From Geosiphon pyriformis uo1 (lineage: Eukaryota > Fungi > Glomeromycota), in contig JAAOMT010000181.1 of NCBI GenBank assembly GCA_016748015.1, positions 100,481-164,480 on the forward strand: a DNA stretch of 64,000 bases. Direction: 5' to 3'. This document shows positions 1,876-60,389 of the stretch, piece after piece (the stretch's first letter is position 1; every line of letters begins with the position of its first letter). Both the position numbers and the translations under genes were made by a program. The notes under the pieces were generated by a model. That model ran no database searches. It had not been told where the DNA came from and was given only the letters and a program-made list of their open reading frames with translations.

Positions 1876-1982
1876 TTGGAAAAAAAATTTTTTTTTTTTT
1901 GTCCTAAATTTTCATAAAGAATTAAAAAGTTTTTTGAAAAGAAGTTTTTTTATCATTCAGTATACTAAATCCAAACTATTTT

Positions 1983-15800: not shown

Positions 15801-15974
15801 AGTTAAATATAAAAGTATTTAAATGGCTGTTAATTGTTGTTACAAAGTATCAATTAATTGTTGGAAGACTAAAAACTTCTTTCTTTCATTCATCTCAAAT
15901 TCCCAAAAAAGAGTCCATAATTTTCTGAAAGAAGTTTTTTTTTTACTATTCAGCACAATATTTTTAAACTGTCT

Positions 15975-17810: not shown

Positions 17811-18992
17811 TTGGATTTGGTTTGGAAAATTGCTATGTGCAATATTCGAGATATCAATGTCTCTGCTAAGCAGAAAAACATTGTTTGTTGGCATAGAAAA
17901 TTAGGGAATTTGGTCTTGATTGTTATGGAAACAAAATTAAGGTCCAGCTGTAGGCCATGGATTAAGAATAGGTTTGATGGTGTTCAGGTTTTTACTTCTG
18001 GTTTGGATGCAGATTTTCTTAGTGCTGGAATGGCCATAATCATAAACATCTCTCTAGCTTATTATGTGTGTAAAATTTCTGAGGTGCCTGGTTGGCTCCT
18101 TTCTATTAAGTTGCTTTTTAAAAATAAGCTGTTGGTATCAATTTTGGGACTTTATGCTGGTGCTTCCCTGTCTGTTTGTTTTGCTCAAGCTGGTGAAGTC
18201 AACTTTTTGATTGCAAAGACTATAAATGAGTTCTCTTTTGTTATCTTAGGTGGTAATTTCAATGAAGATGGATCTCACAAATGTGCTAGTTTCAAGAAAT
18301 GCTCTGATTTTGGTCTGGTCAATTCTTTGAGTGGGAGCTCATTTGTAAGAGTGCCAACATGGAGCAATTCTTGGGGTGTCTCAAAAATGATTGATTACGT
18401 GTTTGTTTTTTCAAGTTTGGCCAATGCAGTTGTACATTATAGTGTTTTGGATGTTAGTGAATATTTTGACACCAATCATCAAGCTGTTTCTGTGTCTGTG
18501 AGTTTGAGTGGCTTGTTGGATGTGCAGTTGAATTTTTTTCACAAGCAAGCGAATAAAAATTGTTGGAAGTTCAATTTTAAGGGTGTTAATGATGCAATGT
18601 GGACCAGATTTAAGGATGCTTCAGTAGCTAATGCTGCCATGTTCTTTGATGATTTTATTGCTTTCAAGTGATTTTCAAATTTGGATGTGATGTGAGATAC
18701 TGTTTACAAGTCTGTTACATTATCAGCTAATGAAATATTCAAAAAGAAATGGTTTAAAGACTCTGGTCACATCTTTACCAAAGAATCTTCGAAGTTTCAT
18801 AGATTAGAACTTTTGGTTTCAAAGATTGTTAGGGCTTGTTGTGGAGCTGATGTTGACAATTTTGGTTCTTTTATGAAGTGTTGGTGTTTTTTGGACAGTG
18901 CTAAGGCTTCGGTCATTCAGGATTTGGTGGACTTTGGTGTGACTTTTAATTGTGTTTGTTCAGCTTTTTGTGTCATCAGAAAGTCTTATCAT
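17808..18992 (+). pseudogene. LINE ORF2 N-terminus: apurinic-type endonuclease domain
   Basis: MLDLVWKIAMCNIR, ETKL, GLYAG, ILGG(D/N)FNE, KMIDYV, DT(D/N)HQAV are exo/endo/phosphatase motifs. Confidence 0.9.
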
Positions 18993-19969
18993 TGTTACCA
19001 GATGAAATTAGAGATATTGCTTAGCATGAAATTACTCTTATAATTCTTATCATTAATTAGCATTTCAAATTATCACTTATTATATTAGCAAAATATCCAA
19101 AATTATCATTTAATTAATAACCCAATTTGTACATAACACAAATGTAACCTAATTGTGATAATCAATCATGCAATATTCCAAACTATGTAACATTCAAAAA
19201 GTTTGCCGAAATTTGTAGAAATTTGCTGAAATAATTGATAGTTACCAAAATATCTAATAGTTCACAGAAATAACTTGTAGTTTGCCAAAATGTATCTCTA
19301 GTTTAGCAAAATTAAAGAAAATAGCAAAGTTCAAGTTTATAGAATAGTGTTATGACAAGTTGTATAAAAAAAGAGCTTCTCTCTTCGAGAAAATGTATCT
19401 TACTTCAGATTTAACAATTAGAATTATCCTTTACACACAAAAACAAAATAAATATCAAATAATTCGAAAAATCAAATCCTTAATTATTTCTCTTTTGAAA
19501 TTAACCCATTCCTACTAAACAGTTTTGAAATTGATTAGCTACCAATTTCAATAAACTGTTAGTGACTTCAGGCCTGAATAGAAAACGTTTCTCTTAACAA
19601 AATTCTATTTCTTTTACATTTTTTTTATTTTCTTTCTTTTATTTTTATTATTATAATTATTAGGGATAGCCTACAGACAAGATTCTTGTAGAAGAGTTGA
19701 CTTTCATAGCAAAGTAACTACACATTTTTAGTGAGCTTCCAGACAAGCAATTCCTGGGAAAGAGTTGACATTTATTACAATATAACTACATAAAGCAACT
19801 GGCACGGAATTGGCCATTCTACTGATAAGCCCAGCAGTTCAAATTATAGGAAATAATTTGAAGAGAAAATTCAGTTATTGAAGGTTCAAACACTTCCTAT
19901 AAGTCATGAATTAACAACATTACAACAAACATACAAGAGCTAAAAAGAGACCAAAAACCTCCGGTAACA
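18993..19969 (+). mobile_element. Solo LTR (977 bp) related to Gypsy B LTRs, opposite orientation
   Basis: TGTTACCAG...CCGGTAACA ends. Similar to the reverse complement of 26611-27626, with a more divergent 5' third. Flanked by TCAT (18989-18992) and TTGT (19970-19973). Confidence 0.9.
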
Positions 19970-19973
19970 TTGT

Positions 19974-20796
19974 TGTTACAGGTGTTTACTTGGTTGTTAA
20001 AGTAAATAACAAATCTGTAACTTGGTGTTCAAGACTGTTGTTGATGATGGCAATCTGAAGGTGTGTTTATCTGAAGGTTTTGGTTGAGTTCTTTGTATAA
20101 TAAACAGAGATTCAGTGGTAATAGTTTTATCCATAGCTTTCCAAAACCACAGTTTTGTCAATTTTTTTCTTAGCATAATGGCCAGTGTTTTTTCTAGTAA
20201 GCTAATCTCAATCGAGTATTCTACCCTTATTTCTGGGTTTTTTACCAGTACTATATCCTAATGTCAGTACCCCGTATGTTAATTCTTAATAGAATTAGTA
20301 ATAACAACAATTAAGACAAGAAAATAAAAGAAATAATATAAAGAAATGAGCCAAGGCAATGTGCAAGTTAGTATCCATCAATAGCCATAATTAAGAGCCA
20401 TTGTTCCAGTGTGGTTAAGTATCAATTGCTATCAACATGGAGTGTTAATAGTAAAGAGTGGATTTGGATGGTAAATAATTTATTTATTCAATATTTGTAA
20501 ATGGGAGATTTCTAACTAAAAGATTCTTTTTTTTTTACTTCTAACACTACTGCTATATACATAATTGATGTTCTATAAGATTGCTCATATTTCCGAGCAA
20601 TATGCTATGATTTTTTGAGCAATGCTCACATTACTAAGTGATGTGCTCTAATTTTCTAACATTGCTCCATATTGCTGAGCAATATGCCATATTTTTTGAC
20701 ATTGCTCTATGTTGCTAAGCAATGTGCTCACATGCTAAATACTATTCTCTTATTGGTTTGCTATTTTCTATATCTGTTTTCTTTTTATGAGTAACA
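19974..20796 (-). repeat. Gypsy A 3' LTR (823 bp)
   Basis: Direct repeat of 38632-39494, adjacent to the PPT. Confidence 0.95.
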
Positions 20797-20811
20797 TTAT
20801 CTCCTTCTTTT
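20797..20811 (-). promoter_or_regulatory. Polypurine tract of Gypsy A
   Basis: AAAAGAAGGAGATAA immediately before the 3' LTR on the minus strand. Confidence 0.8.
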
Positions 20812-21445
20812 AATATTGAGCTCTGTCGAAATCTTCATTTTGAATTAATTCTAATACTTTTTTTTCAAGTATTGTTTGTTCAACTCTGTTTTTCATGTTT
20901 TCTATTTGTGTATTGTTCATTCTTCCCCATTGGTTAATGGTTATGGTTTCCATGTCAGAGTGTAACAGTATTTCTGGATAGTTCTGAAATATGTTGTGTA
21001 GTTGGTAAATTGTTCTCACATGTAATGTTGAGTTCATTTTTTTCTTAATAAATTTTTCAATTTGCTATATTATGTTTTGGTTAAATATCCTTTTGGATTT
21101 GTCGATATACAACTCTTGAATATTCAACTTTTGTCCTAACTGGTAGTAACAGTATGATATTGAAAGTTGTTCTGTCTATTGCTTTCAATTCTCTTTTGTA
21201 AGTTCTTCTGTTGGTGTTATAATAGATATTTTTCCAAAAGTGTTCTTTACTTTTTCTATTATGTTATCTGACCAGTTTTTATCATTCTTTGGTAACTGCT
21301 GATATGATGCATTCTTTGTCTTTCTTTTGGTGTTTTGATAGCAAATTGTTTGATTGTTAATGATAATTTCTATGTCTAAAGGTTGTTAACTTAGGGCCTA
21401 GAATAATTGTTGAGCTATGGTATGAATATAATCTGGTATTTCCAT
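20810..21445 (-). pseudogene. Gypsy A ORF3 (~211 aa, uncharacterised helical protein in the env position)
   Basis: ATG at 21445 (MEIPDYIHTIAQQLF...) is in frame with ORF 20810-21037; internal stops are explainable by transitions. Shares YYQLG..L / R..YQL..IF / I..WG.M motifs with ORF 27607-28107. Confidence 0.7.
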
Positions 21446-21505
21446 TTTTCTTGGTTGTCTTTGTCGTGTATACTGTGTCTTTATATACTCTTTTATTGTT
21501 TGATT

Positions 21506-22881
21506 TTATGTTTTTGGTCCAATGATTATGATTGGTTCCAGATCTTGTGGAATCTTATCTGGTTGAACTAGTATTTGTTATACTCCTAATTGTGGAATGT
21601 TATTGGTAAATGATGATGTTATTTGGTAATATGGTTTTAGTTAATCACCATATGCTGCTTTGATTAAGATTTTGTTGTCTCATCTTAATTTATAAGTTTT
21701 ATTTTTAAGAATTTCTTCTATGTGAAATGGTCTGTCTCATTTGGGGTCAAATTTTCCACTCCATTGTTTTTCTGCTTTGGTATGATATAGCAGTACTTTG
21801 TCTTCAATCTTGAATTCAACTGGTTTGTCTGGTAGTTGATTATCATGTCTTTTTTTCTGTTTTTTTTGTGTTTTTTGGATGTTATCAGCTGCTCTTCGCC
21901 ATTTATTTTCTAATGTTTCCATTAAGTCATATGTTCTTTTTAGCAACATTCCTGAAAATTGTCTTTAGTTATTGGTTCTGTTGGATAAGTGGTAACTTCT
22001 ATCTCAACTGATAATGTTGCTGTTCTATTATATACTAATTCAAATGGTGTTGCTTGTGTAGTGTCTTGCTTTATTGTCCAATAAGCAAATAATACTAATA
22101 GTATGAACAAATTCCATTCATTCTGATTTTCTTGACTGATCTTGGCAATTGCTTTACACAATGTTCTGTTAAATCTCTCAACTAACCCATTTGTTTGTGG
22201 ATGGTATGATGATGATAATGGTCTTTTGATTTCAAATCTCTGACTTAATTTTGCTAATGTTCTGTTCACAAAGTAAGTTCTTTGATTTGATAATAGTTTT
22301 TTTGAACATCCATGTCGACAAATCAAATTTTAATGAACAAATTTGGCAACAGATTCTGTATCTGCTCTTTGAATGGCTTTTGTTTCTGGCTATTTTGTGA
22401 GATAGTTCATGGCTATTACAATATATCTGTTGCCTCTGTTGGTGATTGTTAGTGGTCTGACTAAGTTAATTTTAATGCGATCAAATAGTTGTTCCACTTT
22501 GATTGGTCTTAATGATTCACTAAGTCTTGTTCCTCTTTTTCTTTAATAAACATCACAATTTTGAACATATTGGATAATGTTTGGATACATTAATGACCAA
22601 TAATATCTTTTTCTGGTTTTTTCTATGGTTGCTTTTTTATGAAAATGTCCTGGTATTGGATCTGAGTACATGTTGAATAGTATTGTCTTTTTCTTTGGTT
22701 CTGTGATTACTCTGGTCAGTTGATCTGGATTTCTTTTGTTCTTTTGGTAAAATATATTTTGATGATTAATAAAATATTTTGATTGTTGTTTTATGTTGTT
22801 TTGTTCCTTTTAAGATAATTTCTTCTTAAACAATTGGGTATTTATATAATATTGTAGTTGTTGATATTTTTGTATATTCAT
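21506..22881 (-). pseudogene. Gypsy A integrase (HHCC-DDE), separate ORF
   Basis: Starts MNIQKYQQLQYY. Contains ICRHG, YHPQTNGLVERFNRTL, KAEKQWSGKF. Ends DLEPIIIIGPKT*. Confidence 0.88.
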
Positions 22882-22942
22882 TTTTTGTTATATTTTCATT
22901 GAGTTTGTTCTGGTTTTATTATATTTTTGGGTTGAGATGTTT

Positions 22943-24313
22943 TTAGATTTGTTTCATTCATGACAAATCATCAGCATTTCTGTTGTCTTTTCCCTTTTTA
23001 TAATGTATAGTGTAAGTATATAGTGATAGTGCCATTTTCTATCTTGATTGTCTTCTATCTCCAAATTCTTGTTTATGAAGTGCTGTTAATCTCTTGTGAT
23101 TCATGTATATATCAAACTTCTGGCTCAAGTATTCACTCCATTTCATGACTGCCCAATAAATTGCTAAATGTTCTAATTCTGGTGTTCCATAATTTCTTTC
23201 AGTTGGAGTTAAATCTCGGCTGGCATATACAACTGAATGTTCTCTTCCATCTGGTCCTCTCTGTGATAGTACTGCTCCCAATGCTTGGTCTAATATATTG
23301 GTGGTAATGATGAATGATTTATTGTGATCTAAATAGATCAGTACTAAAGCTTGTATAAGCTTTCTTCTTAAAATATCAAAAGCTTCTTGTTGTGCTTCTG
23401 TCTATTTGTATTTCACATTTTTGGTTTGAAGATGATTAAGTGATTGGGCTATCTTGGAAAAGTTTTTGATGAAGCATTGATAATAGTCTGTAAATCCCAA
23501 AAATGACTTTAACTCTGTTATATTGGTTGGTACTGAAAAGTTTTTGACTATCTCTATCTTTTTTGGATCTGTTTTAATGCCATCTTTGCTTACTATGTGC
23601 CCTAAAAAGTTTAATTTTGTCTTGTCAAAGAAGCACTTATTGGCGTTTAACTTTAGCCCTGTTCATCGTAGCCTTTCGAACACTTGTTGTAAATGATGCA
23701 AATGATCATCAAATGTTTTGGAGAACATATTGGTGTCATCTAAATAAATGACTACTGATTTCCACAACAAGCCAGTATATACTATTTCCATTAGCTATTG
23801 AAATGTGGCTGGTGCATTTGTTAAGCCGAATGGCATCACTTCAAATTCAAAATTTCCCTCCTGTGTTGTGAATGTGGTCTTTTCTTTGTTCACTGAATTT
23901 ATAGCTACTTGTCAGTAACCACTATCTAAATCCAATGTTGAAAACTATTTGTTTTTTCCAAAAGCATCAAATAATTCTTAAATCTGTGAAGTTGGATAGC
24001 TGTCTCCATGTGTGACTCTATTAAGCTTTCTGTAGTCCATGCAAAAGCAGATTTTCCCATTCTTTTTCCAGACGAGTATTACTGGTAATGACCATGAGCT
24101 TATTGATGACTGAATTAACCCATTGTTGAGCATCTGGTTGATTTCTTGACAAATGATCTTATGGCTGGCAGGTGGTACTCTGTATGCTCATTGTTTTATT
24201 GGCATTGTATCTCCAGTTTTGATCTGGTGCTGGATGATATCAGTTCTGCCAAATTTATTTTTACTGGCAAAGATGTCATTGAATTTATTGAGCAACATCT
24301 TCAGCTGCATGCA
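22943..24313 (-). pseudogene. Gypsy A reverse transcriptase + RNase H
   Basis: [20 protein letters not shown] (~23735), FLGHIVS, GAVLSQ..YASR..ERNY...LE.LAI. Ends LS(R)MKQI*. Confidence 0.92.
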
Positions 24314-24769
24314 TTAGAGTGGATCTAGATTCCCCACGTTTATTTGTTCCAATTGTTCTGGTTGGAGCAAATAACATTCATTTTGTCCATATATTGTTTG
24401 TGATGTGATGTCAACATATCCACAAAGCTGTGAAAAGTCTGGAATAGGGTTTGGTAGTTGGTTTTCTATTTCAGTAGTTAAATGTTCTATAATGGTTCTT
24501 TCTGGTATCTTCATAACCTTTCCGGTGTTGTTGTAAATGAGAATTTTGATGTGGCTGTAGTTCCTGGCTGGTATGTAGAGATTGATAAGTCCAATTTCTC
24601 CTGATTTACAATGTGCTGCTTCTGCTTCAAAAATCTGGTTCTGATCCTTTACTTTCCTTTTTATGACTACCATATACTGGTTATATAGTGGAATAGAAAT
24701 TGGTTGACCAGTAAAGATAATTTCTCCCTTGTCAATAATCTCTTCTTCCACCATATTAACTGATATATC

Positions 24770-25200
24770 TATTCTATTTGTTGATCCAAATCCCTGTATC
24801 TCTTTAACTGTAATCCCTAATTCTTTTCTGTTTTCCATTGACACTAACTAAGCTATTTTGACCAGAGACAGGAATATTGCCTGCACTATCTTTTCATTTG
24901 GCTCTATTACATAGGCTTTTTCTGAATTGTTTTGTAGCATAGCAATGATATTTTCCACATATCCTGCATCAATTATTTCTCCTTTGATGTTGATTTTTCT
25001 TTTTGCTAAATTACTTATAGATGCTAATTGAATTATTGTGGTTGCTAGAATTTCCAATGCTATTTTCAGATCAATGTAAGTATGCAAATGTGGTTTCAAT
25101 TTGATAGCATCTTTTTCAGGATATCTCAGATTAAACTTTGCATCAGTATCATGCACACACTCTGGCATGATACCTTTATTATTGTCACTGAACCACTTTA
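24770..25200 (-). pseudogene. Gypsy A dUTPase domain
   Basis: DA(G)F(D)LRY, IQLAS.S.LA, GEIIDAGY, EKIVQAIF, QGFGST: the five trimeric dUTPase motifs, partly decayed. Confidence 0.85.
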
Positions 25201-26610
25201 GCTCTTGTTCTTTGGTGAGGTCAGGAAGTGCTATAAATGTTTTGGAGTTTGGATTTGAGTCCAAATTGCTGTTATCTTTGTTGCCATATTGAACAGAACT
25301 AGAACTGATGTTTTCATTATTGTTATTGTCGGAGTTTGAATCAGAATTGAAAATTGATTCCAATTCTAATGTGCAGCTGCTGATTGGTTCTTCTTCTTCT
25401 GAGATTATATAGATTATGCAGATTGGTGGATTGTAAATAAGATCACACTCATTACAATATTGAAAGTCACATGGGATCAAATAGTGGTCACATAGTTGAG
25501 TGTTTAACTGTGTTAGCCACTGCTTCTGCTTCTCTCTTGTCAGTGCTAATCTCTGGTAATGCTCATGGAATTCCTTGGGATCATCTTCAATGTTACCAAA
25601 GACATTAAATATTTGGAAGTACTTAGGTTCAGGTAGCAACAGAGGGTTGTTTTTTATTTCCAGTAGTTTGCTGATTGTCATGCTTTTTGCTTTTGCACTT
25701 GCCATTCTTCAGAGTTTATGCTTATCATGTGGCTATCCTTCCAATTGTTGCAATGCTCATTTCCAGGCATTGTCAATTAGTGTTCCTTTGCATACCCAGT
25801 CGTTGATTAGGATTGTATACTGGCAGATTTCATTGCACATTTTTCTATGTCCAAAAATGTCATTCCATATTCCTTTGTCCAGGAGAGTCTTTCCACAAGC
25901 TAAACATGAGGTATTATCCCATTTTTTCACTCATTTTGGTTGTCTAAAGTGTTCTAGAATACACGCTTGGCAGTAAAGTTTGGTCGCTGTTGAGTATTCT
26001 TTGTTGTTGCCACAGTATGCACCCATTGATGACAATTTCTTGTTGCAATCGACGCATATAAGCTTTGGTCAATGATAGTTAGAGAGTTGTGGTAGTGTAT
26101 ATTGATGAGGGGTATAATTGTCAGTTGGTAGTAACTCTTTTTCCTTTACTTTTCCTTTTTATTTGCTGTTTTCTTCCCATTCCTAGCTTGGTGTTGGTTT
26201 GTTCTCATCATTGTTGGTCCAGTTCAGGTCATTAGTTTCTCAGGTAAGTTCTTCTTTTTGCTTTTCTTTGGTGTTGTTATCCCATAAGAGTATCAGCAGC
26301 AGTTTGTTATGGTCAACATTGGCTCACAAGACCTGATATGCTTCCCATGTAGGTTTTTTCTCTTTTTCCTTAAACTCGATAAGTGGTGTTGGTATGTTGA
26401 TGGTTTTGAAGTGGCCACACATGGCTGGTACAAGTGTATGTTGACCATTTTGGCTGAGTTGGAGCTCTTGTGTTGTCCAATCAAGTATAACATTTGTTTT
26501 AGTAAGCCAGTCATTACCAACTAGTGCTTATTATTAAGTGGCTTCCATCACCAAAACTTTGATAGGGACTATAATACCATTGACTTCAAAAGGGAAGTCA
26601 TCAATCTCAC

Positions 26611-27626
26611 TGTTACCAGAGGTTTTTGGTCTCTTTTTTTAAATGTTGGTAATGTTGATTTGCTGTGAATTCACGTTTTCAGAAAGTAATTGAACCTCCA
26701 ATAACTGAATTTATCTTCAAATTATCTCCTATAATTTGAACTGCTGGGCTTATAAGTGGAATGGCCAATTTTTTGCCAGTTACTTTATGTAGTTACATTG
26801 TAATAAATGTCAACTCTTTTGCAGGAATTGCTCGTCTGAAAGTTCACTAAAAATGTGTAATTACTTTGCTGTAAAAGTCAACTTTTCTACAGGAATCTTG
26901 TCTGTAGGCTACCCTAGTGATTATAGTAAGAAAAAATAAAAAAAAATAAAAAAAATGTAAAAGAAATAGAATTTTGTCAAAAGAAACGTTTTCTATCCAG
27001 GCCTGGAGTCACTAACAGTTTATTGAAATTGGTAGCTAATCAATTTCGAAATGTTAGTTGGGTTTTGGGGATTTTCCAAGTACAATAATTAAAGAATTTG
27101 GTTTTTTGAATTATTTGATATTTATTTCTTTTTGTGTGTATAGGAACAGTTTTAAAAGATAAATCTAAAGTAAGATACATTTTCCAGAAGAGAAAAGCTC
27201 TTCTTTTATACAACTTGTTGTAGTACTAGTTTATGAACTTGCACTTTTTTTTCTCTTTGCCCAAATTCCGGCAAACTAAAGATACATTTTGATGAACTAC
27301 AAGTTATTTTGCTGAACTATTGATTAATTTGGGTGAACTATTCATAATTTCGGCAAATTTCTGTAAATTTCGGCAAATTTCTTATAAATTTCGGCGAATT
27401 TCTGTAAATTTCAGTGAATTTTTGAATGTTACAAAGTTCAGGGTATTGTGTAATTTGATCATCTTACTTTCTGTTATACTAATTAGATTATTTTAATTGA
27501 ATTGTGATATGTGATAATTGATTAAATAATAAATGATAATTTGAAATGATATTAATATACTAATGAATTATAGGAATTATAAGAGTAATTTCATGCTAAT
27601 CAATAGCTAAAATTTTACTGGTAACA
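26611..27626 (-). repeat. Gypsy B 3' LTR (1016 bp)
   Basis: Direct repeat of 35036-36010. PPT GAGGAGGAGATTA at 27627-27639. Confidence 0.95.
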
Positions 27627-28120
27627 TAATCTCCTCCTCAAGACTGAGCTCCGTCGAAGTCCAAGCACTATCTGTAATATTGAGATAGTGATCTAAAATG
27701 ATTGAAGTAATCTGGTTTGAAAATTGTTGAAATTTCAGTTCTGTGAATTTGCCAATGTATTGAACTTTCATTAATTGCAGTATTGGATTTTGTAGAACAT
27801 TTTCACAAGTATTAAACAAATCATAGAGTCTAAAAGCTGCTCTAAGTTTGTAGCAAGTGTTTATTGGTCCAGCTGCTGTTTTGAATTCATTGTAGATTTG
27901 TTTTTGTATAACTTCAGAAGTGAGATTTGTTGCTTCAAGTTTCAGTTTTCGTTCATAAAGTGTTTTTCCAATTTGAAAGTATTTATAGATAGGGGTGTGT
28001 TCATTGTTCTGTTCATTAAGAAGTAGTAGTAGTTTTTGTTGTATTGTAGCATTTGGTGGAATGTCAATAGGGGCAATTAGCAGATTTTCTTCTAGTGCCT
28101 GCTTCAAAAGTCTTGGTAAT
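27607..28120 (-). CDS. Gypsy B ORF3 (uncharacterised; N-terminus lost in the N gap; reads through the PPT and stops inside the LTR)
   Basis: Open 166+ codons (ORF track 27607-28107). Homologs in D1 (9830-10480) and A (20810-21445). Confidence 0.75.
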
Positions 28121-28289
28121 NNNNNNNNNNNNNNNNNNNNNNNNATAATAAAATTGACTAATTATGAAAAGAGAGAATAAAGAAAATTATTTTTTGAATA
28201 TGGAGTTTTTATTTGTTTTTGGGTTTGGGTGTTTTGTAATTATTTACTATTTTTGTCTTTGTGTTTTTAGTAGAGAATTATTGTAAAAT

Positions 28290-29675
28290 TTAAGTGTTCA
28301 AGTTTGGTTGTTGTTCTATTATAATTATTGGTTCTAAATTTCAGGGAATATCTTCAGGATTAATTAAAGAGGAATGTGTACCAATTTGTAGAATTAATGG
28401 TTCAGGATTGTTTCTGGAATGATAGTGTTTCAGTCTGTCTCCATGTGCAACTTTTGCTAATATTTTGTTATCAAGTCTTAACTTATATGATCCATTGCCT
28501 AGAATTTCGTGAATATAAAATGGTCCATCCCATTTGTTTTCAAATTTCCCACTCCATTGTTTTTCAGCCTTAGTTCTGTATAAGAGAACTTTATTTCCAA
28601 CTTTAAATTCGTTGATAATAGATGGTAATTTGTTGTCATGTCTTTCTTTTTGTTGAGCTTGGGAATGTTTAATATGAGCTGCTGTTATTCTTCTTTTTCC
28701 TTCCAGTGTACTAAGAAGAGTGTAGGCTCTTTTTTGGAGTGTCTCTTGAAAGTTTTCTTCATTGATTGGTTGCACTGGGTATGTTTCCACTGTGAAATTA
28801 ATTGGTAATATTGCTGTCCTTCCATAAGTAAGATCAAATGGTGTGTGTTTCGTAGTATCTTGTTTTAGTGTTCTGTATGCTAGTAATACTGATGGAATAA
28901 AGATATCCCATTCCTGTTCAAAGTCTGTTGAGACTTTGGCTAAAGATTCACACAATGTTCTGTTAAAACGTTCTACAAGTCCATTTGTTTGAAAGTGATA
29001 AGGTGATGATAAAGGTCTTTTGACATTGAACTGTTCACAAATTTTTTGTATCAAGTTGTTCACAAAATGTGTTCCTTGATCAGATAAGAGTTCAATTGGG
29101 CATCCATGTCTACAGATAATGTCTTTATAGATGAAATTTGCTACTGATTTTGCATCTGCTCTTTGGATGGCTCTAGCTTCAGGCCATTTGGTAAGATAAT
29201 CCACTGCAACTGCAATATAACGATTTCCTTGGGTTGTGATAGGTAATGGTCCGACTAAATCAATTCCAACTCTGTCAAAAGGTTGTCCAACTTTGATTGG
29301 ATTTAAAGGTTCTGTGGGGTGAGTTCCTCCTCTTCTCTGGCAGTTATCACAAGATTCTACATATTGTCGAATGTCTTTTTGCATGTAAGGCCAAAAATAA
29401 TGTTCAAGGGTTCTTTGAATTGTTCCCTCTTTTCCCAAGTGTGCTAAAGACAGATCTGTGTGCATGTTGTATAAAATTGTTTCTTTTTCATTCTTTTGTA
29501 CTAATCTGAGTGGCTGGTTTGGTTTTCTGTGATTTTTATAATAAATTTTGTTCTGGTGTATGAAATATTGTTTTGATTGGTGTTGTAAGTGGTGTTTTTC
29601 ACTTGGAGACCAGTTTTCTGGTATGATAAGAGTCTCCAAATAATTTTTAAGATTGCTGTAGTTTCTGGGATCTAT
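28290..29675 (-). pseudogene. Gypsy B integrase (HHCC, DDE, GPF), separate ORF, nearly intact
   Basis: 432-aa ORF 28341-29639: H..AH..C..C, IDLVGP, SDQGTHF, GLVERFNRTL, KWDGPF. The TGA at 28341 is probably an ex-CGA, since the frame continues NLEPIIIIEQQPNLNT*. The start appears decayed to ATA at 29675. Confidence 0.93.
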
Positions 29676-29732
29676 TCTTGTTTGGTTATTTTGTTGGTAA
29701 GTTGGTAAGTTGTGGTGGAATTGTTGTTGGTA

Positions 29733-30985
29733 TTAATCTTGTCTTATTCTTGAGAGGCTATCAACATTGATATGTAGTTTTCTTGGTTTGTGGTGTACAA
29801 TATATCTGTAGTCTGCTAGAAAGTCATTCCATCGAGACTGTTTGGCACTTTGTTCAGTTTTCTTTTTATTGAGCCATTTGAGACCAATGTTGTCCGTTAT
29901 TATGTCAAATTTTTTTCCATTTTTCAGATATTGTTGAAAATGTTTAAAAGCCCAAATAACTGCAGCAGCTTCTAATTTAGTTGAGCCATATTTGAGTTCT
30001 GTTGGCTTGAGTGTTCTGCTGGCATAGGCAATAACTTGTTCTTGGCCATTTTTATCCAATTGTGATAAAATGGCACCAAATGCTATGTGTGAGGCATCAG
30101 TAGCTAATTGGAATCGTTTGTTGAAGTCTGAGTAAACAAGAACTGGGACTGTTGTCAATTTTGTTTTGAGAATTTCAAAAGCTTTTTGTTGTTCTTCAGT
30201 CCATTTGTATGGTATGTTTTTGTTGGTAAGATAATTGAGTGGTTTGGCAATTTCTGAGAATCTTTTTATGAATTTTCGATAGTAAGAGGCTAATCTCACA
30301 AATCCTCTTAGTTCTGTAGTATTTCTGGGGGTTTGAAAGTTTTTAACAGCATTGATTGTTCTTGGATTTGGTTTGATTCCATCTTTACTAACTATGTGTC
30401 CAAGAAAGATCAAACTTGTTTTTCCAAAGTAACATTTCTCAATATTTAACTTTAATCCTGCTTTCTGTAATTGTTGAAAAACTTCTCACAGGTAAATGAG
30501 ATGGGCTTCGAAGCTTGGTGAGTATACATCAGTATCATCAAGATAAACAACTACTGATTACCACAAGAGCCCTTCATAGACAACATCCATGAGCTGCTGA
30601 AATGTTGCTGGTGCATTGCAGAGTCCAAAAGGCATAACATTAAACTCATAATTTCCTTCTTGAGTGGTGAATGCTGTTTTGGGTCTATCTTTTGGGTCCA
30701 TTTTGACTTGTCAGTATCCACTTTCCAGGTCTAAAGTTGAAAAGAACTTGGCTTTTCCCAGAGCATCTAGCATGTCATCAATTCTTGGAAGAGGGTAGGC
30801 ATCTCCAATTGTAACACTATTCAGTTGTCTATAATCAACACAGAATCTAATTTTTCCGTTTTTCTTTTTAACCAAAACTACTGGTAAGACCCAAGGACTT
30901 CTTGATGGTTGAATCAATCCGTTATTGAGCATTCTTTGGACCTCTTCTCTGATAAATTGGTGGCTGGCAGGTGGCACTCGATAAG
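29733..30985 (-). pseudogene. Gypsy B reverse transcriptase + RNase H
   Basis: [71 protein letters not shown]. Ends LSRIRQD*. Confidence 0.95.
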
Positions 30986-31199
30986 NNNNNNNNNNNNNNN
31001 NNNNNNNNNNNNNNNNNNNNNNNNNNNNNNNNNNNNNNNNNNNNNNNNNNNNNNNNNNNNNNNNNNNNNNNNNNNNNNNNNNNNNNNNNNNNNNNNNNNN
31101 NNNNNNNNNNNNNNNNNNNNNNNNNNNNNNNNNNNNNNNNNNNNNNNNNNNNNNNNNNNNNNNNNNNNNNNNNNNNNNGTATTAAGAACTATGTTTACT

Positions 31200-31640
31200 G
31201 GAACTGTAAATTGTCCAGTTGAACCAAAACCTTGAGTTCCTTTTTCACTTTTTCCCAATTGTTCTCTGTTGTTTACTGATTGTAAACCCGAAATGTTGAT
31301 TAAGGGTAAGTAAATTGCTTGAGCAATTTTTTTAGCATGTTCAATTTTGAATGGTTTGTTTGTCTCATTCTATAACATGATGGTAATGTCTCCAGTGTAT
31401 CCTGCATCTATAATTCCTCCTCTAATATTGATTTCTTTGCTTGCCAATGATGATCTGGAGGCAATTTGAACCATTGCTCCTGGTGGAATTTCAAGAGCAA
31501 TTTTTAGATTGATTTTTGTCAAAGACTTTGGTTGGAGAATCAAAGTATCTTTTCTTGGGTATCTCAAGTCATATCCAGCATCAATTTTGTGTGCTTTTTC
31601 TGGTCTGATTCCTTGGCCATGGTTGTCAAAATATTTAAAT
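31200..31640 (-). pseudogene. Gypsy B dUTPase domain
   Basis: DAGYDL, IASRSSLA, GGIIDAGYTGDI, KIAQAI, KGTQGFGSTG. Confidence 0.92.
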
Positions 31641-31749
31641 TGTAGAGGTGGTTGCTTTTCAAGAAGATAGATGGGAGTGGTTAGTAATTCTTCTACTTGT
31701 TCAGATACTCCAAATTCGATTTCATTTTCATCATTCTCATCTGACAGAG

Positions 31750-32380
31750 GAATGCTAAGAGCATAACATTCTAAACACCATTGGTCATCACAAGGCATAA
31801 CACATTCTTCACACAATTGAATGTTCATTTGCTCTAATCGTTGAATTTAAGCTTCTTTGGTTGGATATGTGTGGCTTGCAATTTGGTGGTAGGTTTCTAC
31901 TTTATTTTCATAATCAAATCCAGCTAATTCCATGGTGTACTCAATATATTCAGCTTTTTTCATTTGGCAGACATCTTCTTGAGTGGCTCTATTGATTAAT
32001 GCCATTGCTAGATCAAAAATCATTTCAGCATCATGAGGGTAGTGGTAAAGTTTATTGAGAGCACTGTTGTATGCTGCATCAAATGGTGTCTCTTTTCTGA
32101 CTTTTTCCGAAATTGATAAAGCATATTGACAAGTTTGATCACATACTCCTCTTCTCATTGCTACATCAATCCAATTGCATTCTTCTGGTAGTATTTCTCC
32201 ACATGTAAGGCAAGGTGTGTTGTCTTATTTTCCACTTCTTTTTGGAGATCCAAATCGTTTTTTATGGCATGCTTTGCAAAAGTAACAGGTACGAGTTTCA
32301 TATTCCTCTTCTGAAAAAATACATGCTCTCATTAATGAAAGTTTTTTGCTGCAATCTTTGCATTTGAGTGGAATATAGGG
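31750..32380 (-). other. Cys-rich putative zinc-binding region between protease and dUTPase (also in A ~25430-26070)
   Basis: CKDC..CKAC, CLTC..CDQTC, CEEC..PC...CLEC, with equivalents in A (CVDC, CQAC, CLAC, CNEIC, CDH(Y), CNEC). Confidence 0.7.
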
Positions 32381-32599
32381 TGGTTGTTTCTGTGATTCTG
32401 GTGTAGAATATCTAACTTTCTTCCATCCCCTTAATTCTTTGAAAATCTCTTGTTCGGTTTCTTCAGCCCAATTGAATGTTGATCCAAGAGCCATGTAGGT
32501 TTCAGTAAGTAGCATTTCTTTCTCCTCTTCAAATTCAAATACTGGAGCTTTTTCTGATCGTTTGTTAAAGGTACCACAGATTGCAGGTACTATGGTATA

Positions 32600-32940
32600 T
32601 TGTTCTTGGTATGAGATTTTAAGTTCTTGAGTTTCTCAGTTCAGGTTTGCATTGGTCTTGAAAAGCCAATCATTTCCGACTAGAGCTTGATATTGGGGTG
32701 CATCCATAACAAGAACTTTAACTAGAATGGTGATTCCATCAATTGAAAAAGAGAAATCATCAATTTCTCCTACTGGAGTCTTCTTCATACCATCAGCTGT
32801 GACAATAACTGTTTGAGCTGGTCTGTCTATGTTTTGTTTGAGTTGTTGCATCAGCTGGTAAGTGATGATACTTCCAGCTGATCCACTATTTAAGATTAAG
32901 CAAATGGATTTTCCTTCCACTGTAGCTTCTGTGTACATGG
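32600..32940 (-). pseudogene. Gypsy B aspartic protease
   Basis: LIL(N<D)SGSAGSII ... ALVGNDWL retropepsin motifs; the catalytic D is decayed by G>A. Confidence 0.88.
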
Positions 32941-35035
32941 CAGTAATTGCTTTCTGTTTATTGACTGCTGCATTACTAAGCAGAAATGGTGATTCATTTG
33001 CCTCAAATTCAAATGGAAATATATCTGACAGATTAGCATTTTGGGCAATTTGAGCTGGGGGAATGGTGTGGTTGGAAAAGTTTGATCTTGGTGCTGCAAT
33101 TTCACTTTCAGAAAGTGTAGTTTGTTGAAAATCTGATTCCTCTGGTATTGTAAGATAACTGGGTTGAATGTGATAGTGATTGGGTCTTTGCTGGCCTGAA
33201 TTTCAGGGAACCAACTGGTTATTTAGATTGATTCTGTTGTGGTTATTCTGCAATTGATTTTGGGGTGTGGATTGGTTATATTGAACTAATCTTCTTGCTG
33301 GTACTTGATATTATTGAGTGGGTGGTGTCTGATATGGCTGAATTGGTAAAGATTGCTGATATTGTTGCTGCATTGATTGTGAAGCTGGTGGATAGTAACT
33401 GTTTTGATTTTGTGGCCTTGGTGAATAATAAGTTGGTGGTGGAGATTGGTAATAGGATTGTTGTGGTAAAGAGTAACGTTGATTACTCCTGTTTTGTTGG
33501 TCTCTTTGTAATTTCCTACAATCTCATTTCCAGTGTCCTGGAATTCCACAATAATGACAATTTTGAGATTGGTTATTGGATGATAATCCAAAATTGTTTT
33601 GGTTGTGTCATTGTGAGGGTTGATATCTTTGTGGTTGTTGTGGCTGTTGTTGTTGGTTTGTGAAGTAGCTTTCAATTTTTTTTGTGAGTTGGTTTATCTT
33701 TTTTTCAGCTGCTGAGCTGGTTTCTCCAATTGCAAGATTTACAAGCTTGGTGTGATTTGCTTCTTTCATTGCCATTTCATAGCTTTTTGCCTGTCTAATA
33801 GCAGTTGCTAAGTCTGCTGAAGCATGTGGATGGACTTTCTTAATCAGTTTGTCTTTTAACCCTACTATAAACTGATCCAGAATTTGAGCATCAGAATAAT
33901 AGTCATTGGTTTCTAATTGTCAGATTCGTCTGAGAAGTTTGTTAAATCTTCCAAGATAGGTCATAACAGATTCAGATGTTTCTTGTTTGATATTGCGAAA
34001 GTGGTTTCTGAGAGTGATAGAGGTATTGTTGTCGGTGAATTGTTGTAAGAAAGCATTTTTGAATGCTTGCCAGTTTTCAAATAGTTTTTCTAAATTTTCA
34101 AACCATTCTCTTGCTGTTTCTTGGAGAAAGTAGGGAATTGCTTTGAGCATTCTTGCTGCAATCCAACCATTTGCATCTCCTGCTTTTTGAACTTTGTCAA
34201 GCCATTCTTGGGGACTGGTATCATTGTCTTCACCAGTGAATTCTGGGATTTTTGCAATGTAAGCAGTTGCCATTTCTTCTTTGTTTTTTGGAATTTTTTC
34301 TGGTTCTGATTCAGTTTCCTTACTTTCCAAGCTTTCTGAGTGATTACTTTCGTTTTCTTGTAAGTAATCAATGATATTGGCACTTGTTGATATTGGTTCC
34401 TGCTGTTGAGTAGAATTTCTAGGTGACTGAAAATCTTCTGGTCTAAAGAAACAGCTAAGTGGTGAACTTAATGTTTGTGGTTGAACAAGTGAAATTGGAA
34501 ATGGTGTAATAGAAAGTGGTAATTTGACACTGGTTCCTTGTTCAGGTGTTTGCAAGTGTTTGGCAGTTGTCTTTTGTAGTGTTGGAGTGTTTGGAGTGGT
34601 TCTTGAGTATTGCTTCAATCTTTGTTTGCCTTTATTGCTTGTTTCTGTCTCTGATTCAAAATCAAAAGAGTATTTAGACTGTACTGGGTATTTTTCTTCA
34701 CAATACTTAATAATATTAAAATTAAGTTCTTGGAAGTAGGTAGCAAGTGTTTCACTGTTCAGGTCTTCTGTTCCCAAATGTGAATAATGCACTAGATTAT
34801 TGTAGAGGTTGCTTTTAACTTCTGAAATGTTGTAGTTTCCAAAAAGATAATTGTTGATGCAGTTTTCAATATATTGGTATATTGATTTCTTTACAATTTC
34901 AATTCCGTCTGGAATGTTGAATCTTTGCTTGCAGTGGGTGTAAATTAACTGGTAATACTCTAGAGTTGCTGTGTCTGGTGTGGTCGCCACTTTGAATTTA
35001 TTGTTGCTGTGTTATTTCTGTGGAAGAGCACCAAA
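32941..35035 (-). pseudogene. Gypsy B gag (capsid + CCHC), same frame as pol
   Basis: IPEFTGED..PQEWL, LQETAREWF, IKQ..SESVMTY..F, ILDQFI.GL, and the knuckle CHYCGIPGHW..DC at ~33515-33560. Confidence 0.88.
35014..35033 (-). promoter_or_regulatory. Primer-binding site of Gypsy B
   Basis: TGGTGCTCTTCCACAGAAAT begins 2 nt after the 5' LTR. tRNA identity not determined. Confidence 0.75.
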
Positions 35036-36010
35036 TGTTACCAGAGGTTTTTAATCTCTTTTCTTAAATGTTGGTAATATTGATTTGCTGTGAATTCACG
35101 TTTTCAGGAAGTAGTTAAACCTCCAATAACTGAATTTATCTTCAAATTATCTCTTATAATTTGAACTGCTGGGCTTATAAGTGGAATGGCCAATTCCTTG
35201 CCAGTTACTTTATGTAGTTACATTGTAGTAAACATCAACTCTTTCCCAGGAATTGCTCGTCTAGAAGCTCACTAAAAATGTGTAGTTACTTTGCTGTAAA
35301 AGTCAACTCTTCTACAGGAATCTTGTCTGTAGGCTACCTTAGTGATTATAGTAAGAAAAAATAAAAGAAAATAAAAGAAATGTAAAAGAAATAGAATTTT
35401 GTCAAGAGAAACGTTTTCTATCCAGGCCTGGAGTCACTAACAGTTTACTGAAATTGGTAGCTAATCAATTTCGAAATGTTAGTTGGGTTTTGGAGATTTT
35501 CCAAGTACAATAATTAAAGAATTTGGTTTTTTGAATTATTTGATATTTATTTTTTTTTGTGTGTATAAGAACAGTTTTAAGAGATAAATCTAAAGTAAGA
35601 TACATTTTCCAGAAGAAAAAAGCTCTTCTTTTATACAACTTGTTGTAGTACTAGTTTATGAACTTGCACTTTTTTTTCTCTTTGCCCAAATTCTGGCAAA
35701 CTAAAGATACATTTTGATGAACTACAAGTTATTTCGCTGAACTATTAATTAATTTGGGTAAACTATTCATAAATTTGGCGAATTTCTGTAAATTTCAACA
35801 AATTTTTGAATGTTACAAAGTTCAAGGTATTGTGTAATTTGATCATCTTACTTTCTGTTATACTAATTAGATTATTTTAATTGAATCGTAATATGTGATA
35901 ATTGATTAAATAATAAATGATAATTTGAAATGATATTAATATACTAATGAATTATAAGAATTATAAGGGTAATTTCATGCTAATTAATAGCTAAAATTCT
36001 ACTGGTAACA
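35036..36010 (-). repeat. Gypsy B 5' LTR (975 bp)
   Basis: Direct repeat of 26611-27626, with two fewer ~20-bp internal repeats. Confidence 0.95.
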
Positions 36011-36014
36011 TCGC

Positions 36015-38631
36015 CAATAAGAGTTTTGGTTGTTTTATTGGCTGTAATGATTCTTGCACTGACAGTTCTGTCAACTTGGTGACCTAATTGATTCATGAGT
36101 TGTTTGATAATGATGCTGCCAGCTGATCTATTATTCAGAATCAGTTTGATATCCTGACCATTAACTTTGACATCAGTATACATCGCAGTTATTGGTTTGG
36201 TGTCCAGAGTGGCTCTACTGAACAATAGAACTAATGTGATTTTCTCAAGTTCAAATGGGAATATGGCAACAAGTGATTTGTCTTTGGTGCTGGTGGCTGA
36301 TAGAATATTGCGAATAAGTGGCTTCTGGTTGGTTTCCTGTTTGCTGGATGCAGCATCTTTTGGAATAACCAGAAAACTTAAGTAGTTCTGGAAACTCGGG
36401 TTTTGGTTATATCCAGTTCCTGAACTCCATTGGTGTGATCCTAATAGTTGATTTGATAAACTAGGGATTAGTTGATGAACCACTATCACCAATCTCCAGT
36501 TTTGGGTTACTCTAGATCTGAGGTTTCTGGATGTTATTATAGCTGGGTTTTGTGGCAGTGTTTGAATTGATTGTTGTGGTTGATATATTATGGGTGGCTG
36601 CAGTTGATATATTTGAGGTTGATATACTAGTGTTTGATAGATTGGTGGCAGCATCATTGGCAAATAAGTAGATTGATATTGATTTTGATTCAAGTAATGA
36701 TTCGGAGTTGGGAACTGGTAATTGGGATTCTGATATTGATTTCCCAATTATGAGTTACTATAAGCATGGCAATTGGCTCTAAAGTGATCTTGTTTACTAC
36801 AGTTGTGGCAAATTTGCATTTTTTGTTGTCATGGCTGATTTGTTGATGATAATGGACATGACTGATTTTGGAAACAATTTGTGTTTCCCTGATTATTACA
36901 TTGTTAAAGAGGCTAATAAATTGGGCGATTGTCAGTTAAGTATTCCTCTAATTTCTGATTAATGGAATCACTAAATTGTTTTAGTTTAAAATCTAAGTCA
37001 GATGATCCATTCATTACTAAATTCACAGCTTGGGCGTGGTTGGCTTTTAACTCAGCAGCTTCAAAATCTCTAGTATAAGTGACTGCAGTAGAAAGGTCTA
37101 CCAAATGCATTGAATGTACTTGTTGAAGAATGCTGCTGCATAAGTCTCTGATGAACTGATTTAAGATTTGTGGTGCTGTAAAGTAATCAGCTTAAATAGC
37201 TTGAATTTGGTGCAGATTTCTGTGGAAGCATCTCAAGTAAGTGGTGACTGCTTCTATGTCCCCTTGTTTTAGGGTGGTGAAAGTACTTGCCAGGTAGTTA
37301 ATGCTGTTATTATCACTAAAATATCTTAGGAATTTTGTTTTAAATGCATTAAAATTTTGGGGTTTCTGAGCCAAGCTATGATACCATAAGTTGGCAGTAT
37401 TTTTTAGAAAATATAGAATGACTTGTATTGTTCTTGTGTCATTCCAATTATTTGCAGTAATGGCTTTGGCGACATCATTGATTCATGCCTGGGTGTTGTC
37501 CTCTTCACCAGTGAACTTCTCAAGTTTTGCGATTGGTGCAAAAGCCATTGGCACAATCAGTTGCTGTTGTTGTATTGGTAGTTGAAGCTGTTGTTGCAGT
37601 TGCTAAACCAGTTACTAGATAAGTTGCTGTAGTGATGGCTGTTAAAGAGATATTTGTTGCTGTTGAATTGGTTCAATAATCAGTTCAATTGGTGGCTGAT
37701 TGATGACAATATTCAGAAATAAGTTTTGTTAATTAATTAAGTCAGGGTTTCAGTCATTCTGATTTGGCGGAGTTTTGATTTCTGGATTTTCTAGATTTTG
37801 ATCTTGCTAAGTCTGAAAATTCAGAGTCCCAATATCTGGATTTTCAGTAATTGGGTTCTGGTAAGTAAATTCTTAATCTTCAGATTCTTCTTCTTTTTTT
37901 TCTTCTTGTTCTTTTTCCAATTTGGTTAGTTCTTATGGATCAGTAATTCCAAAATCTGGTTGAAGTGGTGGTGATCAAACTTCTGATGGTGTTGGTAATC
38001 TTGATTTGAATCTCTCAAAGTATGCACTGTATAGTTCTAATAGATTTTTTTTCCTTTGTTTACTTTGGAATGGAAATCATCCAAATGTTGATGTCACATT
38101 TGATGTAGACGTGCCTGCTAATATGATATTGATAGCACTTCCAGGAGTATAATAATATGATGAATTTGTAGGTGATTTAATTTTGTGTTTCTTCCAAGTA
38201 GGTTGTTAAATCCATTGAGGTGTTACTGCCAGTGTTTGTAATTTTCTTTTGCCTTTACTTGCATAAGTGATTGGGTATCTTTGTTGTGTATGATGTTTAA
38301 TTTCTTTATTAATCTCAGTAATGATGGATGTGAAGTTATAATTTGTTGATAAGCTGGTGTTTTGGATTAATTTGTGGTAAAAAGTTTCTCTTGCTGATTT
38401 AGTGTTTATTGTTGTTCCTAACAAATAGGCAATTTTTTTGTTGATGTAGAAATTAAAAGCTGATTCTGCTGATATCTGATTGTGGTTCAATCCCAAATGT
38501 TGACAGTAGTGTTGAAATAAGGATTTCGTAAATCCTAAATGGTTTGCTCTTATACTTTCTGATTTTGCCACTGTTGATTTATTTGTTGGTGCTGGTTCTC
38601 TGTAGAATTATACCTTACAGGGAGCACCAAA
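36015..38631 (-). pseudogene. Gypsy A gag + N-terminal half of protease
   Basis: KFTGEED.TQAWI.D, LKQGD.EAVTTY, knuckle ICHNCSKQDHFRANC (~36770-36815), in frame with MYTDVKV..IKLIL(D)..SAGSII. Confidence 0.88.
38613..38629 (-). promoter_or_regulatory. Primer-binding site of Gypsy A
   Basis: TGGTGCTCCCTGTAAGG begins 2 nt after the 5' LTR. Confidence 0.75.
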
Positions 38632-39494
38632 TGTTACAGGTGTTTACTTGATTGTTAGAGTAAATAACAAACCTGTAACTTGGTGCTCAAGGCTGTTGTT
38701 GATGATGGCAATCTGAAGGTGTGTTTATCTGAAGGTTTTGGTTGAGTTCTTTGTATAATAGACAGAGATTCAGTGGTAATAGTTTTATCCATAGCTTTCT
38801 GAAACCACAGTTTCATCAATTTTTTTCTCAGTGTAATGGCTGGTGTTTTTCCTGATAAGCTAACCTCAATCAAGTGTTCTACCCTTATTTTTGGGTCTTT
38901 TACCAGTACTATATCCTGATGTCAGTATCCTGCACATTAATTCTCAATAGAGTTAGTAATAACAACAATTAAGACAAAAAAATAAAAGAAATAACATAAA
39001 AAAATAAGCCAAAGCAATGCGCAAATTAGTATCCATCAATAGCCATAATCAAAAGCTATTGTTCCAGTATGGTTAAGTATCAATTGCTATCAACATGGAG
39101 TGTTGATAGTAAAAAGTGAATTTGGATGATAAATAATTTATTTATTCAATATTTGTGAATAAAAGATTTCTAACTAAAGAATTCTTCTTTTTCTACTTCT
39201 AATACTACCACTATATATACATAATTGATGTTCTATGAGATCGCTCATTTCTGAGTGATATGCTATGATTTCTTGAGCAATGTTCATATTGCTAAGCAAT
39301 GTGCTCTAATTTTCTAATATTACTTCACATTGCTGAGCAATGTGCCATGTTTTCTGATATTGCTTTATATTGCTGAGCAATATGCCATGATTTCTGACAT
39401 TGCTCCACATTGCTAAGCAATGTGCTTATGTGCTAAATACTATTCTCTCATTGGTTTGCTATTTTCTATATCTGTTTTCTTTTTATGAGTAACA
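38632..39494 (-). repeat. Gypsy A 5' LTR (863 bp)
   Basis: Direct repeat of 19974-20796, with one extra 40-bp repeat unit. Confidence 0.95.
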
Positions 39495-39498
39495 TTGT

Positions 39499-45670: not shown

Positions 45671-45987
45671 ATATTAAGTTGTTTTGGGTAAATTTTGCTT
45701 TTAAAACTTATTTAATTACTATTATCTAAGTTTTTATTAGTGTTTTTTTTTAATCATACTTAAAGTTGTAAAATTTTCTATGGTGGCTTCTGGTTCTTTG
45801 TTTTTTACTTTTGTTATACTTTATAATATTTCTTTTGTTATATTTTTTAAAAATTTTTTTTTTTTACTAATTTAACGAGTGAGGTCCAAACATTGCCTAG
45901 TACAATACATCATACAAGTGATCTAAACTAGGTGTGAATCATGTATTTTCTACACATGACCAGCCATTCAGGCTAGTCAGAACAACA

Positions 45988-60131: not shown

Positions 60132-60134
<3 letters not shown>

Positions 60135-60183
<49 letters not shown>

Positions 60184-60197
60184 GTTATTATTATTAG
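60135..60197. repeat. (ATT)n microsatellite
   Basis: Direct reading. Confidence 0.9.
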
Positions 60198-60365: not shown

Positions 60366-60389
60366 CAACAAAAACAACAACAAAAACAA

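What the first reader, a model, noticed from the sequence alone, without database searches (positions are those of the whole stretch)
18989..39498. All clean LTR insertions have 4-bp TSDs with a central CpG (TCGT, TCGT, TCGC)
Seen: B is flanked by TCAC (26607-26610) and TCGC (36011-36014). The solo LTR is flanked by TCAT/TTGT and A by TTGT/TTGT. TCAT and TTGT are the two deamination products of TCGT, which restores the LINE codons TAT-CGT-GCA. The D1 flank ATAT (45671-45674) is compatible with ACGT but cannot be proven. Known: some Drosophila gypsy-group elements (ZAM, Tirant) prefer CGCG sites. Inference: in CpG-starved DNA this integrase seeks NCGN, possibly methylated, which would steer insertions into young TEs and explain the nesting. 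Only two independent sites are available here.
Basis: partly seen in the sequence, partly recalled or inferred. Interest (0 to 1): 0.8.

Follow-up and report, generated by a model that had tools for sequence, protein, structure and literature searches.

The report
Fungal retrotransposons that land on CpG
In this fungal DNA three jumping genes sit at only two four-base landing sites, each likely a CG pair when it was hit although CG is very rare here, so their insertion enzyme likely seeks CG; whether it senses methylation is untested.

Summary
The flanks are as reported: TCAT | solo LTR | TTGT | element A | TTGT, and TCAC | element B | TCGC. The title's TCGT is a reconstruction: only 1 of 5 flank copies holds a literal CG, and there are two independent sites. 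Both were very likely CG. At site 1, 20 host-LINE homologues (all Geosiphon pyriformis records) read His 10, Cys 8, Arg 2, a decayed CGY codon. CG is 0.35-0.4% of dinucleotides in the host TEs. My rough model favours CG targeting about 2000-3300-fold over random and 120-200-fold over generic YR flexibility. Two LTR families hit the same 4 bp, and two more flanks in public contigs read GCAC and ATGA. No genome-wide count was possible. Methyl-sensing is untested. Steering into TEs is not shown, since non-TE DNA here is richer in CpG (1.1%). Precedents are Ginger1 (CCGG) and ZAM (CGCGCg). This scan noted the same pattern on another piece of this genome (e1-10582392, unreviewed). Verdict: new variant of a known kind.

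The parts
15853..18988 (+). Host LINE-like non-LTR element, 5' part (start approximate)
   Evidence: self-BLAST to paralogs at 1853-8240 and 45846-52651; frame runs across the site
18989..18992 (+). TSD copy TCAT (site 1, likely decayed from TCGT)
   Evidence: homologous codon His 10 / Cys 8 / Arg 2 of 20
18993..19969 (+). Solo LTR related to family B (84% to B's LTRs), oriented opposite to A and B, TGTTAC...GTAACA ends
19970..19973 (+). TSD copy TTGT shared between the solo LTR and element A (double-insertion junction)
19974..20796 (-). Element A 3' LTR
   Evidence: 740 of 821 aligned columns identical to the 5' LTR; 80 of 81 differences are transitions
20797..38631 (-). Element A internal region (gypsy-type, broken ORFs: integrase, dUTPase, protease region), interrupted by B
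26607..26610 (+). TSD copy TCAC (site 2), in A's protease region at a Gly-Glu codon pair where the change is synonymous
26611..27626 (-). Element B 3' LTR
   Evidence: 931 of 975 columns identical to the 5' LTR; 43 of 44 differences are transitions
27607..28161 (-). Extra ORF between integrase and PPT, helical, no Pfam family, conserved in related elements
28341..29732 (-). Element B integrase, open frame of 463 aa: YPYY-like motif, H2C2 zinc finger, DDE core, GPF motif; no chromodomain hit
29733..35035 (-). Element B gag, protease, dUTPase, RT, RNase H (broken; N gap 30986-31178)
35036..36010 (-). Element B 5' LTR, with the PBS adjoining at about 35024-35035
36011..36014 (+). TSD copy TCGC, the only flank with an intact CpG
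38632..39494 (-). Element A 5' LTR
39495..39498 (+). TSD copy TTGT (site 1)
39499..43137 (+). Host LINE-like element, 3' part (end approximate)
44910..45674 (-). Decayed LTR of an older gypsy copy (D) with unpaired, uninformative flank ATAT at 45671-45674

Best explanation
These are gypsy-type LTR retrotransposons with 4-bp target duplications, in what is likely a Geosiphon-like fungus, and their integrase likely selects a CG step at the centre of the four bases by reading sequence or shape, after which host CpG decay would turn the two copies into CA and TG. Shown: the flanks, the 4-bp length, strong CpG decay and two families at one site. Strongly inferred: both sites were CG when first hit. 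Inferred: the integrase itself chooses, as in Ginger1 and ZAM. Each insertion leaves two copies of the target, so a scarce target is likely re-hit, which would explain the tail-to-tail solo/A pair.
For: Flanks. Homologous LINE codon is His 10, Cys 8, Arg 2 among the 20 of 21 hits that align there. CG is 0.35% of dinucleotides in the host LINE and 0.38% in A; estimated 1.1-3.1% in LTRs on arrival. Two-site likelihood ratio: 1978-3296 against random and 122-200 against YR-only (my model). A same-site second hit has about 0.008-0.03% chance per insertion at random, against 0.3-3% if CG is required (genome size and copy number assumed). Two individual LTR ends in run X1 contigs have flanks GCAC and ATGA (table 5c; 2 rows of the 12 shown end at an LTR terminus, 2 more rows hidden); chance 0.014-0.027. 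The consensus flank of 8 contigs is GCAG. YPYY-like and GPF/Y motifs as in the Ginger1-related integrases (PMC2836005). Double insertion at preferred sites is documented (PMC5932611).
Against: Only two independent paired sites, picked after the fact. A's own TSD is a perfect TTGT pair, and 'solo first, decay, then A into TTGT' needs 2 changes rather than 3, which would mean A accepted a TG centre. The contig flanks are single-sided; GCAG is a consensus with 0.51 agreement that may include the GCAC contig, and 17 loose-end rows were hidden. A 21-contig consensus shows TAT before an LTR end, centre TA, which fits AT-rich background equally well. The ATGA reading assumes a decayed terminal CA. 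Three distant elements with a YPYY-like stretch and 4-bp TSDs (L085, L086, L090) have GATT, GATC and ATCT, 0 of 3 CG-derived, so the motif does not predict the trait. A central YR bias is general for 4-bp integrases (PMC4422553).
Confidence: 0.6

Rival explanations
1. The integrase, or a partner such as the extra 3' ORF protein, needs methylated CpG, so insertions are confined to silenced TE DNA.
For: Both sites lie inside TEs that show CpG decay. A's LTRs (9.9% apart) are older than B's (4.5%), so A was probably already methylated when B arrived. TEs carry high mCG in Rhizophagus (PMC8647823, passages). The elements encode a conserved helical ORF of unknown role.
Against: No methylome for this organism was available. 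The integrase has no chromodomain or methyl-binding Pfam hit. The extra ORF has no Pfam match. ZAM integrase binds bare CGCGCG oligonucleotides (PMC2527525). Loss of genic insertions by selection gives the same nesting.
Confidence: 0.2
2. The integrase only has the usual preference of 4-bp-stagger integrases for any flexible YR step (CG, CA, TG, TA); two CG sites are luck.
For: PFV, MoMLV, PERV and XMRV enrich central YR by 63% on average (PMC4422553, section 6). All flanks seen here, including ATAT, have YR centres. A's own TSD is TTGT/TTGT.
Against: CG is only about 3-14% of available YR steps even after correcting for decay, yet both sites trace to CG; ratio 122-200 in favour of CG. TA-centred paired TSDs, expected often under this model, were not seen in 2 of 2 sites.
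Confidence: 0.12
3. Chance plus selection: no target preference, and a reader picked a striking small sample. The double hit would come from attraction to LTR ends or local chromatin.
For: n = 2, chosen after the fact. Two random sites share some central dinucleotide 8-9% of the time (sum of squared frequencies).
Against: The shared dinucleotide is the rarest one; ratio about 2000-3300 against random. The two extra flanks also fit. An exact shared 4-bp junction is very unlikely without a scarce target.
Confidence: 0.08

Closest known systems
Ginger1 DNA transposons (Bao, Kapitonov, Jurka 2010, PMC2836005; parts 1-3 of 5 read)
   Same: 4-bp TSD centred on CG (CCGG 75%, CCGT/ACGG 24% of 112 Hydra elements), TGT termini, gypsy-like integrase with YPYY, H2C2, DDE and GPY/F motifs.
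   Different: Ginger1 are animal cut-and-paste elements with TIRs and OTU/Ulp1 domains. These are fungal LTR retrotransposons with gag, RT and dUTPase, and the outer bases look looser (TCGT, TCGC).
ZAM errantivirus of Drosophila (PMC2527525, passages read)
   Same: A gypsy-group LTR retrotransposon whose integrase binds and targets a CG-containing site (CGCGCg).
   Different: Longer alternating motif with GC at the centre of CGCG, a second binding site is needed, insect host. The target here appears to be a lone CG in CpG-starved DNA.
Central-YR preference of 4-bp-TSD retroviral integrases (PMC4422553; abstract and section 6 read)
   Same: 4-bp stagger, flexible pyrimidine-purine step at the centre.
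   Different: That bias is mild and covers all YR steps. Here both sites trace to the rarest one, CG.
Double-insertion tandems (McGurk and Barbash 2018, PMC5932611, passages read)
   Same: Two elements separated by one copy of the target site, including an inverted LTR pair.
   Different: Here the two partners belong to different LTR families and one is reduced to a solo LTR.

Membership tests
Ty3/gypsy LTR retrotransposon | Domain order gag-PR-RT-RH-IN | tested here: met
   Pfam hits along B's minus strand, with dUTPase between PR and RT
Ty3/gypsy LTR retrotransposon | Paired LTRs with TG...CA ends, PBS, PPT, short TSD | tested here: met
   TGTTAC...GTAACA, TGGTGC PBS, purine tract, 4-bp TSD
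YPYY-motif gypsy integrases (Athila/Tat-related group of Bao et al.) | Y/F-P-Y/F-Y/F motif upstream of the zinc finger | tested here: met
   alignment A1, 41 rows: Y31 aromatic in 38, P38 in 35, Y56 aromatic in 35, Y64 aromatic in 39. Motif definition taken from the paper's text; its figure was not seen
YPYY-motif gypsy integrases (Athila/Tat-related group of Bao et al.) | GPY/F motif | tested here: met
   41 of 41 rows
YPYY-motif gypsy integrases (Athila/Tat-related group of Bao et al.) | Clusters with these integrases in a tree | not tested
   no named reference sequences were fetched
Ginger1 DNA transposon | Terminal inverted repeats, no RT | tested here: not met
   direct LTRs and RT/RNase H present
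Ginger1 DNA transposon | 4-bp TSD CCGG or CCGT/ACGG | tested here: inconclusive
   length and central CG fit; outer bases reconstruct as TCGT and TCGC; n = 2
Chromovirus (chromodomain-guided heterochromatin targeting) | Chromodomain at the integrase C-terminus | tested here: not met
   B's integrase ends about 50 aa after GPF with no Chromo hit at E <= 0.01
Methyl-CpG-directed integration | Preference for 5mCpG over CpG | not testable with these tools
   no methylome, no biochemistry

The most novel reading that the evidence does not exclude
A high-copy fungal gypsy lineage integrates at methylated CpG. It would thereby pile into silenced TEs, double its target at each insertion, and lose targets as the host deaminates them, so host CpG decay works as a defence by erasing landing sites while fresh TEs resupply them.
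Probability: 0.2. Interest if true: 0.8.

Novelty: new variant of a known kind. Interest (0 to 1): 0.5.

Why it matters
A strict CG-centred target is described for Ginger1 DNA transposons, and a CG-rich one for ZAM. I found none for a fungal LTR retrotransposon in my paper searches (Repbase and most subscription journals are not covered). If real, it ties integration to the one dinucleotide the host methylates and destroys, a feedback that could shape TE stacks in glomeromycotan genomes. It also predicts mismatched TSDs, so pipelines that demand identical TSDs would under-call these elements (inference). B's open integrase frame makes it directly testable.

Tried and rejected
No whole genome is held, so the decisive genome-wide count could not be run. 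Exact LTR-end patterns found nothing in metagenome contigs or genome contigs; viral contigs gave two weak integrase hits. Close relatives in metagenomes (40-56% identity) have collapsed or truncated LTRs, with no genomic flank among those I could read; part's output was cut, and I re-read 10 loci. Of 14 complete distant elements examined, 9 had 5-bp TSDs, 3 had 4-bp TSDs and 2 gave none. Laying X1 contigs on the double junction gave 6 of 23 loose-end rows, consensus only. Runs X2 and X3 hold next to none of the element's words and were not used as evidence. Reading junctions from chimeric Geosiphon gene models failed: P0136 carries A-type LTR peptide but is spliced around both junctions. The LINE's own ends are too decayed to read a TSD. 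The extra 3' ORF model (pLDDT 79) had no Foldseek match at E <= 0.001 and a best VIA Z of 5.4, in the noise for helical proteins; the Atlas did not answer. The residue at the HIV Ser119-equivalent position is Thr in B and in 25 of 41 relatives, but also in L085 and L086, which lack CG TSDs, so it does not explain the trait; that equivalence is recalled from the D-x-G-S motif. No paper supplements were read; TSD tables there could bear on novelty.
Full report
Anatomy. The window is an AT-rich stack of nested TEs followed by about 4 kb of non-TE DNA. CpG observed/expected is 0.11-0.16 in the long TE bodies (0.33-0.43 in the B-type LTRs) and 0.93 at 60001-64000. A LINE-like element (about 15853-43137) is interrupted at one point by a solo LTR (18993-19969) and gypsy element A (19974-39494), and A is interrupted by element B (26611-36010). 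B carries gag, protease, dUTPase, RT, RNase H and an open 463-aa integrase. Named integrase relatives are Rhizophagus proteins at 45-48% identity. All 21 hits to a paralogous LINE segment are Geosiphon pyriformis records, so the host is likely Geosiphon or a close glomeromycotan relative.

Observation. The flanks are TCAT | solo | TTGT | A | TTGT and TCAC | B | TCGC. The LINE is colinear with a paralog when one 4-bp copy is left. The title's TCGT is a reconstruction, 1 of 5 copies has a real CG, and there are two independent sites. The ATAT flank at 45671 has no partner: the related LTR near 9008-9830 is internal, with a PBS on one side and a PPT on the other, and TA is 15% of dinucleotides there.

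Were the sites CG? LTR pairs differ almost only by transitions (80 of 81, 43 of 44). Estimated CpG survival is about 0.1 since A arrived and about 0.6 since B arrived. At site 1 the bases fall on a LINE codon. Of 21 homologues, 20 align there and read His 10, Cys 8, Arg 2 after a Tyr conserved in 19. That is the pattern of a decaying CGY codon and is independent of the TSD copies. At site 2 the change is synonymous (Gly-Glu), so only mutation direction helps. Apparent reverse transitions are at most 14 per 694 A/T sites, giving a 69-75% chance that the original was CG even under random targeting.

Is it more than chance? CG is 0.35% of dinucleotides in the host LINE and 0.38% in A, and an estimated 1.1-3.1% in LTRs on arrival. 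A simple decay model gives a two-site likelihood ratio of 1978-3296 for CG targeting over random and 122-200 over a generic YR preference. Its rates are partly my assumptions, and the pattern was chosen after the fact. Two different LTR families share one 4-bp junction. With assumed genome sizes and copy numbers this is about 30-100 times likelier if CG is required. Such double insertions are known where a preferred target is duplicated (PMC5932611, passages).

Other loci. No assembly is held. Run X1 holds the family, with 20,148 contigs laid on 1.9 kb; it may be the window's own sample, but the contigs are other loci. Two joints show an LTR end followed by GCAC and by ATGA (table 5c), both compatible with a decayed CG; chance 0.014-0.027. 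Eight contigs give the consensus flank GCAG at 0.51 agreement, and four align through the TTGT position before diverging (17 rows hidden). A 21-contig consensus shows TAT before an LTR end, which is uninformative. This is weak support, not the genome-wide test.

Against. A's own TSD is a perfect TTGT pair, and the shortest history (solo first, decay, then A) has A entering a TG centre. Three distant elements with a YPYY-like stretch and 4-bp TSDs have GATT, GATC and ATCT (L085, L086, L090), so the trait is not general to such integrases. Non-TE DNA is richer in CpG than the resident TEs, so a sequence-only CG preference would not by itself confine insertions to TEs. Young TEs and selection could both add to the nesting.

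Mechanism. Shown: 4-bp duplications, CpG decay, the double hit, and an integrase with YPYY-like and GPF motifs and no chromodomain hit. Inferred: the integrase selects a central CG by sequence or shape, a narrowing of the central-YR bending preference of 4-bp integrases (PMC4422553, abstract and section 6), as in Ginger1. Each insertion doubles the target, and deamination later makes the copies mismatch and removes them as targets. I put this at 0.6, methyl-dependent reading at 0.2, generic YR at 0.12 and chance at 0.08, so about 0.8 for some real CG preference.

Known systems. Ginger1 has 4-bp TSDs CCGG (75%) or CCGT/ACGG (24%) and a YPYY integrase grouping near Athila/Tat (PMC2836005, parts 1-3 of 5); that text reports no CG TSD for the LTR relatives. 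ZAM targets CGCGCg (PMC2527525, passages). Other Drosophila gypsy families use ATAT or TATA, and Tirant's CGCG was not confirmed (PMC3276498, passages). Rhizophagus TEs are generally highly CG-methylated (PMC8647823, passages). An AMF TE survey has no TSD, insertion-site or CpG passage (PMC11952901, passages). PMC6839031 and PMC12440569 (passages) and PMC4005685 (abstract) added background only. Other titles were seen only as search listings, and no supplements were read. These elements are gypsy members, work like Ginger1 in target choice, and are not Ginger1.

The scan recorded the same pattern on another piece of this genome (e1-10582392, unreviewed). I could not check its sites and do not count it as evidence.

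Verdict. A real and probably non-random feature resting on a small sample: new variant of a known kind, interest 0.5. It would be 0.8 if methyl-CpG reading were shown.

Noticed in passing
window 27607-28161 (-); also broken in A near 20800-21350; L003, L005, L006, L007, L009, L015, L016, L083: A conserved ORF of about 145 aa lies between integrase and PPT in these fungal-type gypsy elements. It has 450 representatives at E <= 0.001, no shared Pfam family among 122 members, an all-helical model at pLDDT 79 and no clear fold match. Possible accessory or targeting factor.
   Followed up: partly
window 9833-15850 and 43300-45670: Pieces C and D look like one older, AT-decayed gypsy copy split by the LINE. 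The LTR near 9008-9830 is shared with a further copy to its left (PBS on one side, PPT on the other), i.e. a tandem with a shared LTR.
   Followed up: partly
window LTR pairs 19974-20796/38632-39494 and 26611-27626/35036-36010: LTR pairs differ almost only by transitions, and most lie outside a CpG-compatible context (55 of 80, 35 of 43), which hints at non-CG methylation or a RIP-like process. Older TEs fall to 13-15% GC. LTR-divergence dating would overestimate ages here.
   Followed up: partly
window 24851-25708 and 30917-31846 (-): Both A and B carry a dUTPase domain; in B it lies between protease and RT.
   Followed up: no
window 54323-55200: Tandem array with a period of about 57 bp.
   Followed up: no
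window 7995-8238 and 56190-56433: A 244-bp stretch at the 3' end of the first LINE copy recurs at 80% identity, perhaps a truncated LINE tail.
   Followed up: no
L085, L086, L090, L092-L099, L105, L106, L109, L117, L125: Contigs filed under bacterial MAGs hold eukaryote-type gypsy sequence, mostly complete elements with LTRs and TSDs, i.e. likely host contamination in those records.
   Followed up: no
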